Positions 7,989 through 30,962 of a stretch of 33,830 bases of DNA are shown here, in pieces. This DNA comes from a virus: IMG/VR virus record IMGVR_UViG_3300022074_000187. One strand, given 5' to 3'. Both the position numbers and the translations under genes were made by a program. Positions within the stretch are counted from its first letter, which is position 1; each line of letters starts with the position of its first letter. Below the pieces are notes generated by a model. It did not search any database, was not told the origin of the DNA, and saw only the letters and a list, made by a program, of their open reading frames with translations.

Positions 7989-8236
7989 GTTTACGTAAAT
8001 GGGTTGGTGAGAAGTGGGTTGATATTGGTGCTCCAAAGAAGAATGGTAAGTATCAACCTTGTGGTAGGAGTAAAGGATCTAAAAGAAAGTATCCAAAATG
8101 TGTACCATTAGCAAAGGCTAGAAAAATGACAGCATCACAGAAAGCTTCAGCAGTAAAAAGAAAGCGAGCAGTAAAACAAGGGGTTGGTGGTAAACCAACT
8201 AATGTAGCAACCTTTAAAAGAAAGAAAAAAAAGTAA
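7985..8236 (+). CDS. Polybasic miniprotein 3 (83 aa)
   Basis: WVGEKWVDIG...YQPCGRSKGSKRKYPKCVPLAKARKMT...KRKRAV...KRKKKK. ATGA overlap with the upstream gene. Confidence 0.65.
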   Translation: MSLRKWVGEKWVDIGAPKKNGKYQPCGRSKGSKRKYPKCVPLAKARKMTASQKASAVKRKRAVKQGVGGKPTNVATFKRKKKK

Positions 8237-8502
8237 TGGCGAAATCACCAGCTTGGCAACGTAAAGAAGGCAAGAACCCTAGTGGTGGATTAAATGCAAA
8301 GGGTCGTGCTAGTTATAACAAAGGTCGCACCAAGACAGGTAAAAAAAGAAATCTTAAAGCACCATCAAAAAAAGTTGGTAATAAAAGACGTGCAAGTTTT
8401 TGTGCAAGGATGAAAGGTATGAAGAAAAAACTTACTGGTGCAAAGAAACGTAACGATCCTAATTCAAGAATTAATAAATCACTACGTGCGTGGAACTGCT
8501 AA
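8236..8502 (+). CDS. Polybasic miniprotein 4 (88 aa)
   Basis: SPAWQRKEGKNPSGGLNAKGRASYNKG...KRRASFCARMKGMKKK. TAATG overlap with the upstream gene. Confidence 0.65.
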   Translation: MAKSPAWQRKEGKNPSGGLNAKGRASYNKGRTKTGKKRNLKAPSKKVGNKRRASFCARMKGMKKKLTGAKKRNDPNSRINKSLRAWNC

Positions 8503-8666
8503 TGTATGTAATTAATTACAAAATGTTTTTTCATAAAAGACCAGCAAAAGCAGATGTAGAAAATAAATTGTTTGATCTGTTGCGTGATGGTTTTACTTTA
8601 CGCACTGCTGAAGAAGAAGATGATTATGTTAAAAGAAAAGATATACAGGAGAAAAAATGTTTATAA
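8502..8666 (+). CDS. Small hypothetical ORF (54 aa)
   Basis: Below the ORF-track cut-off. Hand translation gives MYVINYKMFFHKRPAKADVENKLFDLLRDGFTLRTAEEEDDYVKRKDIQEKKCL. TAATG junction with the upstream gene. It fills an otherwise empty 154-nt gap. Confidence 0.3.
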   Translation: MYVINYKMFFHKRPAKADVENKLFDLLRDGFTLRTAEEEDDYVKRKDIQEKKCL

Positions 8667-8845
8667 GAGAACTATCATTTACAGATCTAAATAGATTGCG
8701 TAAAATTGTACGTAATACACATCTTAAATTTTATCCAAATGGTTATCTTACTAACACAGAAGTAGATAAATTTATAAATTCACTCGGTCCAGATGTAGCT
8801 GGTAAAATGATAAAGTTTGCAGTAGACAACAGACAAGTTGACTAA
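8657..8845 (+). CDS. Hypothetical protein
   Basis: 62-aa ORF. SD AGGAGAAAAAATG. Its stop overlaps the TerL start (TAATG). Confidence 0.55.
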   Translation: MFIRELSFTDLNRLRKIVRNTHLKFYPNGYLTNTEVDKFINSLGPDVAGKMIKFAVDNRQVD

Positions 8846-25737: not shown

Positions 25738-27813
25738 ATGGCTATAGTCGTAAATGATACAACACCAAGAAATCAGTACACAGCTACGTCTACACAGACT
25801 ACGTTTACTTACTCCTTTGAAATATTTGAAGTAACTGATATAAAAGTATTTCAAGGTTCTACACTCCTAACATACGCTAGTAGTCCTTCGGACAAAACTG
25901 AGTATAGGGTTACAGGTGCTGGTACATCAGGTGGTGGCACTATTGTATTAGGTGGTGGTGCTACTGCTAATGATGTGTATACATTAGTAAGAGATATACC
26001 TGTTGCAAGAACAACAGACTTTCCTACATCTGGTCCATTTGTAATAGATAGTTTAAATACTGATCTTGATAAGATGGTTGCTATGATGGGTGAAAGAGAA
26101 GATGAGATAGCAAGGTCAATAAGACTAACTGATGATGATTCTTCTGCAACATTAACATTACCACTAAAAGCAAGTAGAGCAAATAAAGTATTAACATTTA
26201 GTAGTACAGGTAATGTAGAAACTTCTATTACAGCAACAGACGTAAGTACCGTTGCTAGTATTTCAAGTAACATAACAACAGTAAGTGGCATAGCAAGTAA
26301 TGTAACAACAGTAGCTGGCATTAGTAGTAATGTAACTACTGTTGCTGGCAAGGCATCAGAAATAACTTCTGTTGCGGCAGTTGCAAGTTTAATAACTTCA
26401 GACTTTGTATCGGATCTAAACACATTAGCAGTAACAGATGTAGTAAATGATATTAATACATTAGCTACTTCTGATATTGTAAGTGATCTTAACACACTAG
26501 CCACATCAGATATTGTTAGTGATTTAAATACTTTGGCAACAAGTGATATTGTTTCTGATATAAACACTCTTGCTACAAGTGATATAGTAAGTGATTTAAA
26601 TACACTTGCTACTAGTGATTTTGTATCAGATTTAAATACAATAGCTACTTCAACAAATGTAAACAATATTGCAACAGTTGCTGGTAATAACTCAAACATA
26701 AATACGGTAGCTGGTAACAATTCTAATATTTCTACTGTAGCTGGAATATCAAGTAACGTTACTACTGTTGCTGGCATTACAAGTAATATTGCTACAGTCG
26801 CTGGTATATCAGCTAATATAACTACAGTTGCTAGTAACAATGCAAACATAACTACATTAGCTGGTATAAGTTCAGACGTAACATCTCTTGCTAGTGCTCT
26901 TGCATCTACTACTAATTATACTGTAACAGTAGCAAGTGGTACATTATATGGTGGTGGTACTGGTAATGTATTTTATTTAGATGGTACTGGTAATCCAGCA
27001 ATTACTTTAATAAGAGGTAATACATATGTATTTGATCAAAGTGATTCTAGTAATGCTTCACATCCAATAGCATTTAGGACTAGTGCAGATGCAAGCTATA
27101 CAACAGGTGTAACTTCTACTGGTACTCCTGGAAATGCTGGAGCAAAAACTACATTTGTTGTACCTTCAGATGCACCAGCTTCGTTAAAGTATTACTGTAC
27201 TACGCATGGAAATGGTATGGGTAATGTTATTACTGTAGATACTTCAAACATAAATGTTGTTGCTAGTAATATAGGTGAAGTAAATAGTTTTGCACAAAGA
27301 TATAGAGTAGGAAGTAGTGATCCTACGTCATCACTAGATGAAGGAGATTTAGCATATAATAGTACAGCAAATGTTTTAAAATATTATAATGGATCTGCTT
27401 GGGTAACTATTGTTGCTGGTTCTTTGACAGATATAGTACAGGATGGTAGTCCACAATTAGGTGGAGATCTTGATGTTCAAACAAATTCAATAATATCTAC
27501 AACAAATAGAGATATAAATATTACACCAAATGGATCTGGTAAAGTAGTTTTAGATGGATTAAGTTATCCAACATCTGATGGTACAGCAAATCAAGCAATA
27601 ACAACAGATGGTTCTGGCACTCTTACTTTTGCTACAATACAAGCAAGTGAGTTGACAAGTGCTGGAAATTTGTTTAGTAATTATAATAGTGTAAGTAGTA
27701 ATGCTACTTCTACAACAGCCAGCACAAAGAATGCGTTTCTCTTTGGACCGATAACTGTAAGTGGTTCTGCTACTTGGACAATAAATGGAAATGGCACATT
27801 AGAAATTTTATAG
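25738..27813 (+). CDS. Tail fibre: gp17-like N-terminal adaptor, tandem-repeat shaft, cupredoxin-like domain, C-terminal domain
   Basis: The N-terminus (YTATSTQTTFTYSFEIF...IKVF...YRV...LVRDIPVARTTDF...LNTDLDK) parallels the T7 gp17 N-terminal domain (LDGSNRDFNIPFEYL...YRF...LRRVTSTTDRLVDF...LNVAQ). Confidence 0.8.
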   Translation: MAIVVNDTTPRNQYTATSTQTTFTYSFEIFEVTDIKVFQGSTLLTYASSPSDKTEYRVTGAGTSGGGTIVLGGGATANDVYTLVRDIPVARTTDFPTSGPFVIDSLNTDLDKMVAMMGEREDEIARSIRLTDDDSSATLTLPLKASRANKVLTFSSTGNVETSITATDVSTVASISSNITTVSGIASNVTTVAGISSNVTTVAGKASEITSVAAVASLITSDFVSDLNTLAVTDVVNDINTLATSDIVSDLNTLATSDIVSDLNTLATSDIVSDINTLATSDIVSDLNTLATSDFVSDLNTIATSTNVNNIATVAGNNSNINTVAGNNSNISTVAGISSNVTTVAGITSNIATVAGISANITTVASNNANITTLAGISSDVTSLASALASTTNYTVTVASGTLYGGGTGNVFYLDGTGNPAITLIRGNTYVFDQSDSSNASHPIAFRTSADASYTTGVTSTGTPGNAGAKTTFVVPSDAPASLKYYCTTHGNGMGNVITVDTSNINVVASNIGEVNSFAQRYRVGSSDPTSSLDEGDLAYNSTANVLKYYNGSAWVTIVAGSLTDIVQDGSPQLGGDLDVQTNSIISTTNRDINITPNGSGKVVLDGLSYPTSDGTANQAITTDGSGTLTFATIQASELTSAGNLFSNYNSVSSNATSTTASTKNAFLFGPITVSGSATWTINGNGTLEIL
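26239..26904 (+). repeat. In-frame tandem repeat array inside the tail-fibre gene
   Basis: Three blocks. 30-nt units x5 (NxTTVAGISS type, 26239-26388). 36-nt units x about 7 (LATSDIVSDLNT type, about 26398-26664). 30-nt units x8 (NIxTVAGxxS, 26665-26904). Confidence 0.9.
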
Positions 27814-28416: not shown

Positions 28417-29205
28417 ATGCCGTTACAAGGTGAATTTTTTCAAAAACCAGCTAGTTCTACAGGAATATATTCGTATCAAATCGAGCAAAGTTTAAGGTTC
28501 GATTTTGCAGATGATAGTTATATGAATTTTTCTCCTGGAACTGCTACCAGTAGAGATGTTATGACTTGGAGTTTTTGGTTTAAGTTTGGTGGCGACCCAT
28601 ATTCTGGTGGACAAGAAAATATATTATGGACTGCTGGTAGTGGTGGTGGTGCTGGACAATATTCATTTTTGGAAGTAAGAGCTTCAGACAGAAATTTAAC
28701 TTGTGACTTTTATAATTTAGGTATAGGTGCTCTTGATGTATCACTAGTTGATCCTTCTTCTTGGTATCATTTAGTTATGCGATATAACTCTAATGAAAGT
28801 ACACAAATAGATAGATTAAAAATTTGGTTAAATGGTAGACAATTAACAATATCTTCTAATAGCATATCTTCTGGAGAAGATTTTCCTAATTGGAACAATA
28901 ACAATATGTATATAGGCAACAAAACAAATATAGGTCACGCAGTACAAGGTACTAATTTTAGTTTTGCAGAATGGATTTTTGTTGATGGTACTGCTTATGA
29001 TGAAACGCAGTTTGGCGAATTTAAGAATAATATTTGGGTGCCGAAAAATCCAGCTGGAACTTCATTCGGTAATAATGGTTTTCATTTAAAATTTGCGTCT
29101 GGAGCTTTTGGTACAGATTCAAGTGGTAATGGTAATAACTGGTCTACCAACAACATAGGTACTGATCACGCTTCTATTGATACACCAACAAGTGGAGGGA
29201 GTTAA
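28417..29205 (+). CDS. Concanavalin-A/LamG-like lectin-fold protein (putative distal fibre / receptor binding)
   Basis: MTWSFWFKFGG ... SSWYHLVMRYNS ... LKIWLNGRQL follows the LamG (Laminin_G_3) strand pattern. Confidence 0.6.
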   Translation: MPLQGEFFQKPASSTGIYSYQIEQSLRFDFADDSYMNFSPGTATSRDVMTWSFWFKFGGDPYSGGQENILWTAGSGGGAGQYSFLEVRASDRNLTCDFYNLGIGALDVSLVDPSSWYHLVMRYNSNESTQIDRLKIWLNGRQLTISSNSISSGEDFPNWNNNNMYIGNKTNIGHAVQGTNFSFAEWIFVDGTAYDETQFGEFKNNIWVPKNPAGTSFGNNGFHLKFASGAFGTDSSGNGNNWSTNNIGTDHASIDTPTSGGS

Positions 29206-29207
29206 TT

Positions 29208-30962
29208 ATGGCGGCTAATTGTAATTTTGCAACTTGGAATCCTGGTGCTAAAGTAAATCCTGGTCTATCTTATTCAGGATCAATTTTTGATAAAGCTAAT
29301 ACTAGATTCAGAGGTAACACTGGTGGTACATCATCTGCAACTTCTACAATCAGTATGAAAAGTGGTAAATGGTATGTAGAATTATATGCAGAAAATAATC
29401 CAAACGGAGGTTGGCCTACACTAGGACTTCTTAAAACTTCATCTATTTCAATAATGCAAAATGTAAGTAATTACCAAGGTTATACAAGTGCTACTGTTTC
29501 TCATAGGTCAGAAATTGTTGGAACAAATGGTAACATAAATGCATTTGGTTCAACATCAGGTGCTTCTGTAGGAGGTAGTGCTTGGGCAGATGGTGACATA
29601 GTACAAATAGCTGTGGATATAGATGCTGGTAAATGGTGGTTTGGTAAAAATAATACTTATTTTAATAGTGGAAATCCAGCAGCTGGAACTGGGCAAGTAG
29701 ATACATTTACTGCTGGAACAGAAATGTCTATATGGGTAGCTAGTTATAATGGCTCTTCTTATATGCACATTAATGCTGGTCAAAGCAGTCAGTTTAATGG
29801 TAATAAAACAAGTGGTTCTGCGAATGCAACTGATGGTAACGGCTTCGGAGATTTTTATTACACCCCACCTACAGGCTTCAATGCCCTATGTCAGGGCAAC
29901 GTTGCGATTGATGATGACATTGATCCAGCACAAACTGATAATGATTTTATAGGTGGTAAACAATTTGCTATAGCTACTTGGACTGGTGATGGTGTAAATG
30001 ATAGAGCTATATCTTTAGGTATGCAACCTGATTTAATAGTAATAAAAGAAAGAGGTTCAGCTAATAATTGGTATTGGATAGATAGCACAAGAGGAATAAA
30101 TAATTCTTTACAAAGTAACACAGATGGTGGAACTCATGTAGATACAGGAATTGCAAATGCTTTTACATCAACTGGTTTTACCCTAGGAACTTCAGGTGGT
30201 TCAAATAATAGTAGTGATACATATTGTGGTTGGGGTTGGCGTTGTAATGGGGGAACAACAGCTAGTAATAGTAGTGGTTCAATAACTTCTACAGTACAAG
30301 CAAACGCAGAAGCTGGTTTTAGTATAATTACCTATACAGGAAATGGTAGTGCTGGTGCTACAATAGGGCACGGTCTAGGAAAGGCACCAGAATTTTTTTT
30401 AATTAAAAGATTAAGTTCTCAGCAAACTTGGGCAGTATATTCTGTAGGTTTAGGAGCCACAAAAAACGTTGCTTTAAACAATAACAATGCTGTTGCTACA
30501 GGTACTGCTTGGTTTAATGATACAGAACCTAGTGCTACTTTAATTACTATAGGTACTGAGGGTAGAGTTAATCAAAATGGTGGAAATTATGTTTGTTATG
30601 CGTGGACATCAATTCCTGGTTTCTCTTCATTTGGGTCATACAACGGCACAGGCAATACTCAAGGTGCTTTCGTGTATACTGGCTTTCGCCCAAAATTAGT
30701 AATGCTAAAAAGGACAGATGGAGCAGGTTCGTATTTAGTGTCTGATGCAACAAGAAGACCTTTTAATGATGAAGATTACAGAGAGGTGTATTGGAATGAT
30801 ACAAGTTCAGAGCAAACAGGTACAAATACACACGATGGAGTAGATTATTTATCAAACGGATTTCGTTTAAGAGGTACTAATTTAGGGTCGCAAGGTAGCA
30901 ATAATGATTATATTTATTCTGCTTGGGGAGATATTCCATTTCGCTATTCTAACCCATTTTAA
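29208..30962 (+). CDS. SPRY-domain-containing structural protein (putative receptor binding)
   Basis: SGKWYVELYAENNPNGGWPTLGLL and GDIVQIAVDIDAGKWWFGKNN are the two hallmark SPRY/B30.2 motifs. A further Gly/Ser/Thr/Asn-rich region of about 390 aa follows. Confidence 0.65.
   Translation: MAANCNFATWNPGAKVNPGLSYSGSIFDKANTRFRGNTGGTSSATSTISMKSGKWYVELYAENNPNGGWPTLGLLKTSSISIMQNVSNYQGYTSATVSHRSEIVGTNGNINAFGSTSGASVGGSAWADGDIVQIAVDIDAGKWWFGKNNTYFNSGNPAAGTGQVDTFTAGTEMSIWVASYNGSSYMHINAGQSSQFNGNKTSGSANATDGNGFGDFYYTPPTGFNALCQGNVAIDDDIDPAQTDNDFIGGKQFAIATWTGDGVNDRAISLGMQPDLIVIKERGSANNWYWIDSTRGINNSLQSNTDGGTHVDTGIANAFTSTGFTLGTSGGSNNSSDTYCGWGWRCNGGTTASNSSGSITSTVQANAEAGFSIITYTGNGSAGATIGHGLGKAPEFFLIKRLSSQQTWAVYSVGLGATKNVALNNNNAVATGTAWFNDTEPSATLITIGTEGRVNQNGGNYVCYAWTSIPGFSSFGSYNGTGNTQGAFVYTGFRPKLVMLKRTDGAGSYLVSDATRRPFNDEDYREVYWNDTSSEQTGTNTHDGVDYLSNGFRLRGTNLGSQGSNNDYIYSAWGDIPFRYSNPF

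What the first reader, a model, noticed from the sequence alone, without database searches (positions are those of the whole stretch)
26917..27240. Cupredoxin-like domain with a full type-1 copper ligand pattern inside the tail fibre
Fibre residues about 394-501 read YTVTVASGTLYGGGTGNVFYLDG...ITLIRGNTYVFDQSDSSNASHPIAFRT...TTFVVPSDAPASLKYYCTTHGNGMGNVITV.

- The C-terminal YYC-TT-H-GNG-M-G...V is the Cys-x2-His-x3-Met loop arrangement of plastocyanin/amicyanin-type blue copper proteins.
- The candidate ligand residues are Cys487, His490 and Met494.
- The upstream His442 (SHPIAF) lies where the N-terminal His ligand sits, after a G-x-TY-x-F strand.

A redox/metal-binding fold used as a fibre module is unusual. 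It could be a true Cu site, or a cupredoxin scaffold reused for receptor binding.
Basis: partly seen in the sequence, partly recalled or inferred. Interest (0 to 1): 0.65.

Follow-up and report, generated by a model that had tools for sequence, protein, structure and literature searches.

The report
Blue-copper-like module in phage fibre
A marine phage's tail fibre carries an optional 110-residue domain that is predicted to fold like plastocyanin-type blue copper proteins and keeps all four copper-binding residues. The same unannotated module is very common in ocean phage tails and bacterial surface proteins, but nobody has yet tested whether it binds copper.

Summary
Fibre ORF 25738-27813 (691 aa) holds a domain at residues 391-501 (nt 26908-27240) with His442, Cys487, His490 and Met494. 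These are the protein's only Cys and its only two His.

- **Fold:** AlphaFold2 gives a confident all-beta model (pLDDT 91.5). All 26 Foldseek PDB hits at E <= 0.001 are cupredoxin domains of multicopper oxidases or copper nitrite reductases.
- **Register:** hhalign places the four residues on plastocyanin His37, Cys84, His87 and Met92. Sequence-level homology is not significant, and Pfam and NCBIfam have no model.
- **Family size:** at least 8,952 clusters at 50% identity. They occur in fibres, gp7- and gp9-like baseplate proteins and SU10-like tail proteins of cyanophages and pelagiphages, and in giant secreted proteins of marine bacteria.
- **Ligand behaviour:** His/Cys/His are kept together (320 copies) or lost together (93 copies). 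158 of 161 single-domain proteins have all four residues.
- **Dispensability:** a close relative lacks exactly this 124-codon cassette.

Best reading: an accessory cupredoxin-fold module with a type-1-like metal site, probably copper, that stabilises an exposed knob on the fibre shaft. Copper binding is untested. It is a new variant of a known kind.

The parts
25738..27813 (+). Tail fibre gene, 691 aa
   Evidence: ORF. PHROG tail and tail-fibre families hit it. tblastn finds annotated tail fibres of pelagiphages, T7-like cyanophages and roseophages. The gene follows the tail-tube and internal-virion-protein genes.
25750..26082 (+). N-terminal region (residues 5-115), probable attachment to the tail
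   Evidence: phrog_1640 and phrog_13893 'tail protein', E 1e-16 and 6.5e-9. 45% identical to a protein of Pelagibacter phage Hodr.
26264..26868 (+). Shaft made of 10-aa and 12-aa peptide repeats (NvTTVAGISS; SDIVSDLNTLAT)
   Evidence: Tandem DNA repeats of 30/60 and 36/72 nt. Translation.
26868..27239 (+). Optional 372-nt (124-codon) in-frame cassette: a linker plus the cupredoxin-like domain. It is absent from the fibre of a close relative (L041) and present in another (L042).
   Evidence: DNA alignment. BLASTP joins shaft repeats directly to residue 503 at 83% identity. tblastn and HMM scans of L041 and L042.
26908..27240 (+). Cupredoxin-like beta-sandwich domain, residues 391-501
   Evidence: AF2 pLDDT 91.5, nine strands. 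Foldseek PDB hits are cupredoxin domains. The family HMM hit has E 1e-48 and is the only copy in the window.
27034..27054 (+). Conserved loop D-Q-S-D-S-S-N just before His442
   Evidence: Conserved both in copies that keep the His/Cys/His triad and in copies that lost it. Its role is therefore separate from the metal site; a Ca2+ loop is only a guess.
27061..27063 (+). His442, candidate N-terminal His ligand, immediately before strand 5
   Evidence: Codon CAT. Aligned with plastocyanin His37. His in 371 of 535 copies, and in all copies that keep the Cys.
27196..27219 (+). Ligand loop Cys487-Thr-Thr-His490-Gly-Asn-Gly-Met494
   Evidence: Codons. Cys lies at the end of strand 8, His in the loop and Met in the last strand of the model. 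Aligned with plastocyanin Cys84, His87 and Met92.
27241..27810 (+). Distal fibre region, residues 502-691; probably holds the receptor-binding end
   Evidence: phrog_21412 and phrog_13518. 275 homologues found; only 1 of the 120 listed carries the cupredoxin-like domain. The AF2 model is moderate (pLDDT 75.9) with no significant PDB match.

Best explanation
Residues 391-501 of the fibre form an accessory, cassette-like beta-sandwich domain of the cupredoxin fold. The domain is inserted in-line between two repeat units of the fibre shaft. In a cupredoxin both chain ends lie at the pole opposite the metal site. Three copies per trimeric fibre should therefore project sideways as a knob, with the site pointing outwards (inferred from the known topology, not measured).

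The domain keeps a complete type-1-like site: His442, Cys487, His490 and axial Met494. It most probably binds one metal ion there, with copper the best candidate. The main effect would be to lock the two ligand loops and stabilise an exposed domain that has no disulfide.

The module itself most likely acts like the Ig-like decoration domains of other phages. It would be a sturdy exposed surface that gives weak, auxiliary contacts with the cell envelope or simply spaces the fibre. It is probably neither an electron carrier nor the primary receptor-binding tip.

- **Shown here:** the fold prediction, ligand positions, ligand conservation, correlated loss of the ligands, the wide distribution, and dispensability in a close relative.
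- **Inferred:** metal binding, the identity of the metal, the orientation on the fibre, and the adhesion or stabilising role.
For: **Fold.**
- AF2 model with pLDDT 91.5 and pTM 0.83, nine beta strands.
- There are 26 PDB matches at E <= 0.001, all cupredoxin domains of multicopper oxidases or Cu nitrite reductases. 49 of the 50 listed matches are cupredoxin domains; rank 31 is a Shewanella peptidase. No Ig or FN3 domains appear.
- As an internal control, the distal-fibre model gave no significant hit.

**Site geometry by position.** Cys lies at the end of the penultimate strand, His in the loop, Met in the last strand, and the first His just before strand 5.

**Register.** Two hhalign runs put the four residues on His37, Cys84, His87 and Met92 of poplar plastocyanin. 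That sequence was verified as 1PLC.

**Weak family signal.** PF00127 is the Pfam family matched by most members: 5 of 30, best E 0.0099.

**Selection on the site.**
- The three residues are the only Cys and the only two His in 691 aa.
- HCHM occurs in 311 of 432 complete copies and in 158 of 161 single-domain proteins.
- The 2x2 table of His47 against Cys94 is 320 / 14 / 5 / 93, so the triad is kept or lost as a unit.
- Lost sites are refilled with Tyr, Glu/Asp/Ser and Ser/Thr/Asn.
- HCHM is found in 29 of 30 loci from marine genomes. It is also in every complete copy examined in P-RSM4 (two copies: the gp9-like gene and the next gene), P-HM2 gp7, pelagiphage Baldr, Methylophilales phage Melnitz, P-SCSP2 and S-TIM61.

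**Accessory nature.**
- The domain sits in many different virion proteins.
- It occurs in arrays of up to 26 copies alongside lectin-like domains.
- It occurs in secreted giant proteins of marine Bacteroidetes and SAR86.
- It is missing as an exact in-frame 124-codon cassette from a relative whose distal fibre is 83% identical.
Against: - **No direct evidence of any metal.** The tools do not return model coordinates, so convergence of the four side chains could not be measured.
- **Sequence homology to cupredoxins is not significant.** Pfam and NCBIfam give no hit for this copy. A profile search of PDB sequences gives only E 0.01-0.4, mixed with antibody V domains that share 'YYC'. hhalign probability is 56% with one alignment and 3.9% with a broader one.
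- **The structural match is moderate.** Foldseek TM-scores to solved cupredoxins are 0.42-0.53.
- **Copper supply is a problem.** Virion proteins fold in the host cytoplasm, where free copper is essentially absent. Known cellular cupredoxins are loaded outside the cytoplasm (established knowledge).
- **One second-sphere residue differs.** The Asn that follows the first His in plastocyanin (His37-Asn38, sequence) is Pro or Gln here.
- **The site and the domain are dispensable.** Site-less paralogues and a natural deletion variant exist.
- **Met is not specific evidence.** Met494-Gly495 is conserved even in site-less copies, so Met conservation does not by itself point to a metal site.
Confidence: 0.55

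Rival explanations
1. The fold and site are the same, but the metal bound in the virion is not copper. Zinc (or iron) would be picked up in the host cytoplasm and would serve purely as a structural ion.
For: The fibre is made in the cytoplasm and has no export signal (sequence). Type-1 sites are known to accept Zn(II) when copper is unavailable (established knowledge about azurin expression). Phage fibres commonly use structural metal ions; T4 gp37 binds iron through His-x-His motifs (established knowledge; the 'Ferrojan Horse' literature was found). The correlated retention of His/Cys/His fits any metal.
Against: A His2-Cys-Met set on a cupredoxin scaffold with amicyanin-like spacing is the signature of copper. 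The same intact site is kept in secreted bacterial giant proteins, which could load copper outside the cell.
Confidence: 0.2
2. No metal is bound. The domain is only an Ig-like spacer or adhesion module. The four residues are conserved for packing or hydrogen bonding, as a relic of a cupredoxin ancestor.
For: About a quarter of copies lack the triad and evidently still fold. Met-Gly is conserved regardless of the triad. The whole domain is dispensable in a close relative. The module co-occurs with lectin-like domains in giant proteins.
Against: A relic site should decay residue by residue. Instead the mixed states are rare (14 + 5 against 320 + 93). 158 of 161 single-domain proteins, drawn from clusters no more than 50% identical to each other, keep all four residues. 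A lone, invariant, unpaired Cys in an extracellular protein is hard to explain without a ligand role.
Confidence: 0.13
3. The site is functionally active copper on the virion surface. It could be a redox-active centre, or a 'Trojan horse' that presents bound copper to a host copper-uptake or cupredoxin-docking receptor during adsorption.
For: In blue copper proteins the C-terminal His ligand sits in the exposed patch used for partner docking (established knowledge). The domain is often the C-terminal, outermost part of a protein: the 223-aa SU10-like phage proteins and the gp9-like protein of P-RSM4. An analogous idea exists for iron in tail fibres.
Against: There is no partner, no second redox centre and no enzyme domain in the fibre. 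The domain is internal here and is absent from a close relative that keeps the same distal fibre. Hosts of carriers range from cyanobacteria to SAR11 and Methylophilales, which argues against one specific receptor.
Confidence: 0.07

Closest known systems
Small blue copper proteins: plastocyanin, amicyanin, pseudoazurin (Pfam PF00127, cupredoxin clan)
   Same: About 100-residue Greek-key beta-sandwich. The ligand set is His ... Cys-x2-His-xn-Met, with Cys at the end of a strand and Met in the last strand. The local motifs G-x-x-[YI]-x-F ... H-x-[IL]-x-F and Y-Y-C-x-x-H-x-x-G-M-x-G-x-[IV]-x-V align with 1PLC. Most relatives have amicyanin's C-x2-H-x2-M spacing.
   Different: Not recognised by PF00127 at its threshold. 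It is not a stand-alone exported electron carrier but a module inside virion and surface proteins. It has an extra N-terminal hairpin and strongly conserved loops of its own (FDQSDSSN, YTTGV, GTPGxxGA). The residue after the first His is Pro or Gln, not Asn. No redox partner is evident.
Cupredoxin domains of multicopper oxidases (CueO, laccases, bilirubin oxidase) and copper nitrite reductases
   Same: These are the best structural matches in the PDB (E 2e-4 to 2e-3, TM 0.42-0.53). They also show cupredoxin domains used as repeated modules, some with and some without copper sites.
   Different: There are no trinuclear or type-2 site residues, no partner domain and no enzyme context. Sequence identity is 12-22%.
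Ig-like accessory domains on phage virions (Ig I-set, FN3, Big_2; for example T4 Hoc), as surveyed by Fraser and colleagues in 2006 (own knowledge)
   Same: A roughly 100-residue beta-sandwich added to many different structural proteins, at variable positions and copy numbers. It is present or absent between close relatives and shared with bacterial surface proteins. This is what it most probably works like.
   Different: Different fold class, with a conserved metal-ligand set that Ig-like decoration domains lack. No hit to Ig, FN3 or Big Pfam models.
Structural metal sites in phage fibres (iron in the T4 gp37 tip; the 'Ferrojan Horse' hypothesis)
   Same: Metal ions built into tail fibres of phages, with possible consequences for trace-metal chemistry in the sea (own knowledge for T4 gp37).
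   Different: Those sites are inter-subunit His-x-His arrays on the trimer axis. Here the site lies within one globular domain and has copper-type ligands.
Cyanophage-encoded plastocyanin (petE auxiliary metabolic gene)
   Same: A cupredoxin encoded by marine phages (own knowledge).
   Different: petE is a stand-alone, host-derived photosynthetic electron carrier recognised by PF00127. The module here is part of the virion, is not recognised by PF00127, and also occurs in phages of non-photosynthetic hosts.

Membership tests
Cupredoxin fold / type-1 blue copper proteins | Greek-key beta-sandwich of 7-9 strands superposable on solved cupredoxins | tested here: met
   AF2 pLDDT 91.5 with nine strands. 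Foldseek against the PDB gives 26 hits at E <= 0.001, all cupredoxin domains, at a moderate TM of 0.43-0.53.
Cupredoxin fold / type-1 blue copper proteins | Ligand set His ... Cys-xn-His-xn-Met at canonical positions: first His before the fourth or fifth strand, Cys at the end of the penultimate strand, Met in the last strand | tested here: met
   His442, Cys487, His490 and Met494 correspond to model residues 63, 108, 111 and 115. The strands span 65-69, 103-108 and 112-122.
Cupredoxin fold / type-1 blue copper proteins | Ligands fall in register with those of a solved blue copper protein when aligned | tested here: met
   hhalign against 1PLC pairs H442 with H37, C487 with C84, H490 with H87 and M494 with M92. 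The register was the same in two independent runs. The 1PLC sequence was verified.
Cupredoxin fold / type-1 blue copper proteins | Statistically significant sequence homology (Pfam PF00127 or PF13473 above the gathering score, or a confident profile-profile match) | tested here: not met
   No Pfam hit for this copy. 5 of 30 relatives hit PF00127 only at E >= 0.0099. PDB profile search gives E >= 0.1 for plastocyanins. hhalign probability is 56% and 3.9%.
Cupredoxin fold / type-1 blue copper proteins | Ligands conserved among homologues | tested here: met
   HCHM occurs in 311 of 432 copies and in 158 of 161 single-domain proteins. The triad is kept or lost as a unit.
Cupredoxin fold / type-1 blue copper proteins | The four side chains converge on one point in three dimensions | not testable with these tools
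   Structure prediction returns confidence and secondary structure but no coordinates.
Cupredoxin fold / type-1 blue copper proteins | Binds copper: intense absorption near 600 nm, small parallel hyperfine splitting in EPR, about 1 Cu per domain | not testable with these tools
   Needs protein chemistry.
Cupredoxin fold / type-1 blue copper proteins | Matures outside the cytoplasm (export signal, copper loaded in the periplasm, thylakoid or outside the cell), as in known cellular members | tested here: not met
   The domain is internal to a virion protein with no N-terminal signal. Secreted bacterial relatives (RTX- or Big/FG-GAP-containing giant proteins) would meet this criterion.
Accessory beta-sandwich decoration domains of phage virion proteins (works-like comparison) | The same ~100-aa module occurs in unrelated structural proteins, with variable position and copy number, and is optional between close relatives | tested here: met
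   Found in fibres, gp7- and gp9-like proteins, SU10-like tail proteins and giant proteins with up to 26 copies. A 124-codon presence/absence difference separates the window from L041.
Accessory beta-sandwich decoration domains of phage virion proteins (works-like comparison) | Belongs to the Ig I-set, FN3 or Big_2 sequence families | tested here: not met
   No such Pfam hit. Structural matches are cupredoxins, not Ig-like domains.
Cyanophage plastocyanin (petE) auxiliary gene | Stand-alone small protein recognised by PF00127 | tested here: not met
   The domain is embedded in a 691-aa fibre and has no PF00127 hit.

The most novel reading that the evidence does not exclude
Marine phage particles, and the giant surface proteins of marine bacteria, would carry a very large and so far unrecognised class of genuine type-1 copper sites on their outer surface. 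Virions would then be copper-binding colloids. They would contribute to the strong organic copper-ligand pool of seawater, as a copper counterpart of the 'Ferrojan Horse' idea for iron. The bound copper, or its exposed docking patch, could take part in recognising the host envelope.
Probability: 0.15. Interest if true: 0.85.

Novelty: new variant of a known kind. Interest (0 to 1): 0.62.

Why it matters
If the site binds copper, this would be the first blue-copper-type centre known as a building block of virus particles. It would not be a curiosity. The family has at least 8,952 clusters at 50% identity and is present in cultured cyanophages, pelagiphages and phages of methylotrophs, that is, in viruses of the most abundant ocean bacteria.

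- **Annotation.** It gives a name and a testable property to a domain that is currently blank in Pfam, NCBIfam and phage genome annotations.
- **Protein evolution.** It adds a fourth fold, after Ig, FN3 and Big_2, to the set of mobile decoration modules of phage tails.
- **Ocean chemistry.** It raises a concrete question about phages and trace-metal speciation.
- **If no metal is bound.** The family would still be a clean natural experiment in how a metal site is kept or dismantled as a unit.

Tried and rejected
- **Pfam and NCBIfam** scans of the fibre and of the domain found nothing relevant.
- **phmmer and profile hmmsearch against PDB sequences** gave only non-significant hits. They were dominated by antibody variable domains that share the 'YYC' motif. 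An Ig V-like reading was rejected: there is no second Cys for the Ig disulfide, and structural matches are cupredoxins, not Ig domains.
- **A plastocyanin profile from a database search** was meant to sharpen the profile-profile comparison. It returned only near-identical plant sequences. With a broader family alignment the hhalign probability fell to 3.9%, though the register stayed the same.
- **The distal fibre (502-691)** was modelled to identify the receptor-binding tip. The model was moderate and had no significant PDB match.
- **Literature searches** combined cupredoxin, plastocyanin-like or blue copper with tail fibre, virion, cyanophage or marine phage. None found a description of this module.
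- **Chance occurrence** was rejected by shuffling.
- **A second copy in the window** was looked for and not found.
Full report
**1. The observation.**

The window reads like a T7-like-order podovirus genome of about 34 kb. It carries a terminase, a portal-type protein, a major capsid protein, a 728-aa tail protein and large internal virion proteins, followed by fibre genes.

ORF 25738-27813 (+) encodes a 691-aa protein.
- It matches PHROG tail and tail-fibre families.
- It matches annotated tail fibres of pelagiphages, T7-like cyanophages and roseophages.

The candidate ligands are His442 (27061-27063), Cys487 (27196-27198), His490 (27205-27207) and Met494 (27217-27219).

Three results show this is more than chance.
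- The fibre has only one Cys and only two His in 691 residues, and these are the three proposed ligands.
- The full pattern occurs once in the six-frame translation, against 0.08 expected in shuffled windows.
- Random placement of the fibre's own Cys, His and Met never produced the pattern in 200,000 trials.

One detail needs correcting. The loop is C-x2-H-x3-M, which lies between amicyanin (x2/x2) and plastocyanin (x2/x4). Most relatives have C-x2-H-x2-M.

**2. The fold.**

An AlphaFold2 model of residues 380-510 was built with 57 aligned sequences. It is confident (pLDDT 91.5, pTM 0.83) and all-beta, with nine strands.

Foldseek against 350,542 PDB chains gives 26 matches at E <= 0.001.
- All 26 are cupredoxin domains of multicopper oxidases or copper nitrite reductases.
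- 49 of the 50 listed matches are cupredoxin domains; rank 31 is a Shewanella peptidase.
- No Ig-like or FN3 domain appears, although those are far more numerous in the PDB.
- TM-scores are moderate (0.42-0.53).

In the model the residues take the canonical type-1 positions. Cys487 ends the penultimate strand, His490 is in the following loop, Met494 lies in the last strand, and His442 immediately precedes strand 5.

As an internal control, the model of the distal fibre gave no significant match at all.

**3. Sequence relation to blue copper proteins.**

Sequence methods alone do not establish homology.
- Pfam and NCBIfam have no hit.
- A profile search of PDB sequences gives E 0.01-0.4, with plastocyanins mixed among antibody V domains that share 'YYC'.
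- PF00127 is the Pfam family hit by most members (5 of 30), but only at E >= 0.0099.

hhalign against poplar plastocyanin was run twice; that sequence was verified as 1PLC, 99/99 identical.
- With the 30-sequence alignment it aligns 74 columns at 56% probability.
- With a broader alignment the probability is 3.9%.
- Both runs use the same register: His442 on His37, Cys487 on Cys84, His490 on His87, Met494 on Met92.

I therefore treat the fold and site assignment as resting on structure prediction plus ligand register. Family membership by sequence is not shown.

**4. The family.**

The domain is not peculiar to this phage. A profile search of 1.84 billion cluster representatives finds 8,952 proteins at E <= 0.001 and 4,925 at E <= 1e-10. 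Single proteins carry up to 26 copies.

tblastn finds it in 294 phage records, mostly Synechococcus and Prochlorococcus phages, with a few pelagiphages and Methylophilales phage Melnitz. The features under the matches are annotated as tail fibre, gp9 'baseplate wedge tail fibre connector', gp7 or 'virion structural protein'. Foldseek against predicted viral structures agrees, with TM 0.6-0.8.

Other contexts:
- The closest relatives are about 223-aa proteins of SU10-like podophages. They are encoded right after two SU10_adaptor genes, and a second copy lies in the next gene.
- Thirty loci in marine MAGs and single-cell genomes carry the domain.
- Some of these are clearly cellular giant proteins on megabase contigs. 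One is a Bacteroidetes protein with DUF285, FG-GAP and Big domains; another is a SAR86 protein with RTX repeats.
- Array-bearing giant proteins combine the domain with Laminin_G_3, F5/8 type C and Gly_rich_2 modules.

No paper in the searchable library links cupredoxin, plastocyanin-like or blue-copper terms with phage tails.

**5. Behaviour of the ligands.**

In the first 120 homologues the four residues are nearly invariant. Across 432 complete copies from 267 proteins, 311 are His/Cys/His/Met.

The rest mostly lack all three of His, Cys and His together.
- The His against Cys table is 320 / 14 / 5 / 93.
- The Cys against second-His table is 320 / 5 / 3 / 104.
- The lost positions are refilled with Tyr, then Glu/Asp/Ser, then Ser/Thr/Asn.

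Of 161 single-domain proteins, 158 have HCHM and 2 have HCHL. The site-less copies sit mainly in tandem arrays.

Residues that track the triad are G32, T34, Y61-T62 and P87 of the profile. The FDQSDSSN loop and Met-Gly are conserved with or without the triad.

HCHM is present in 29 of 30 genome loci. It is also in every complete copy examined in P-RSM4 (two copies), P-HM2 gp7, pelagiphage Baldr, Melnitz, P-SCSP2 and S-TIM61.

Keeping or dismantling a set of residues as a unit is what is expected of a cooperative metal site. The copies are related to each other, however, so the counts are not independent events.

**6. Place in the fibre.**

The fibre has four parts:
- an N-terminal tail-attachment region (residues 5-115);
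- a shaft of 10-aa and 12-aa repeats;
- the domain (residues 391-501);
- a 190-residue distal region.

Homologues of the distal region are numerous, but only 1 of the 120 listed carries the domain.

Two near relatives on contigs of about 33-34 kb are decisive.
- L042 has a co-linear fibre with the domain. It is 80-93% identical, and its frameshifts are typical of long-read assemblies.
- L041 has a distal region 83% identical. Its shaft repeats run directly into residue 503.
- L041 therefore lacks 372 nt, or 124 codons, in frame (window 26868-27239). No copy lies elsewhere on its 20.7-kb locus.

The module is therefore an optional cassette inserted between two shaft repeats. It is neither the receptor-binding tip nor an essential part of the fibre.

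**7. Mechanism.**

My best-supported reading (confidence 0.55) is an accessory cupredoxin-fold module with a functional type-1-like metal site.

In cupredoxins both chain ends lie at the pole opposite the site. An in-line insertion should therefore project sideways from the trimeric shaft, with the site outwards. This step is inferred from topology.

The metal is most probably copper. It would clamp the ligand loops and stabilise an exposed, disulfide-free domain. The domain would act like the Ig-like decoration domains of other phages, as a weak auxiliary adhesion surface or a spacer.

The main objection is supply. Virions assemble in the cytoplasm, where free copper is negligible, so zinc may occupy the site, or copper may be acquired only after release.

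The rivals are:
- a structural non-copper metal (0.20);
- no metal at all (0.13);
- an active redox or 'Trojan horse' role for surface copper (0.07).

**8. Verdict.**

- The fold is cupredoxin-like (about 0.9).
- A real metal site is likely (about 0.7).
- Copper specifically is about even odds.

It is a new variant of a known kind: a cupredoxin module used as a mobile building block of phage tails and marine surface proteins. It is absent from Pfam (2025 copy) and NCBIfam (2026), and from the literature I could search. Interest is 0.62. It would rise sharply if copper is found in virions.

Noticed in passing
window 26264-26868 (and minus-strand ORF 25851-26849): The fibre shaft is encoded by tandem DNA repeats of 30/60 and 36/72 nt, which give 10-aa (NvTTVAGISS) and 12-aa (SDIVSDLNTLAT) peptide repeats. 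The 332-aa antisense ORF across them looks like a by-product of the repeats, not a gene.
   Followed up: partly
window 28417-29205 and 29208-30962: Two adjacent ORFs match consecutive parts (437-681 and 694-1225) of a single PHROG profile, phrog_19943 'virion structural protein' (1227 positions). What is one large gene in relatives is two abutting ORFs here.
   Followed up: no
window 27034-27054 (D433-N439): The loop FDQSDSSN before His442 is among the most conserved parts of the domain. It is conserved equally in copies that have lost the His/Cys/His triad. It must serve another purpose; a Ca2+-binding loop is a guess only.
   Followed up: partly
L041 10080-10260 versus window 26868-27239: A close relative (34,040-bp contig) lacks exactly the 124-codon cassette with the domain, while its distal fibre is 83% identical. 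Another relative (L042, 32,999-bp contig) has the cassette but shows frameshifts typical of a long-read assembly.
   Followed up: yes
L001-L003 (SU10-like podophage contigs), genes at 8001-8672 and 8672-10534 of L001: The closest relatives of the domain are 223-aa proteins encoded after two SU10_adaptor genes. The next gene (620 aa) carries a second copy. Both copies have His/Cys/His/Met.
   Followed up: partly
P0121 (3815 aa; L040 264-11711), P0122, P0128: Giant proteins carry 10-26 tandem copies of the domain. Most of these copies are site-less (Tyr / Glu, Asp or Ser / x / Met). Often only one copy keeps His/Cys/His/Met. They are combined with Laminin_G_3, F5/8 type C and Gly_rich_2 domains.
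   Followed up: partly
L013 703-12285 (Bacteroidetes SAG AAA795-G10, 1.06-Mb contig); L033 3922-10119 (SAR86 MAG, 1.3-Mb contig): Cellular giant surface or secreted proteins (DUF285, FG-GAP and Big domains; RTX repeats) carry one intact copy of the domain. The module is therefore shared between marine bacteria and their phages.
   Followed up: partly
P0392 (homologue of window 27241-27810): A protein 78% identical to the distal fibre is deposited as 'hypothetical protein [Polaribacter sp.]' on a 24.8-kb contig. This is a possible hint at a flavobacterial host, or a phage contig binned with a Polaribacter MAG.
   Followed up: no
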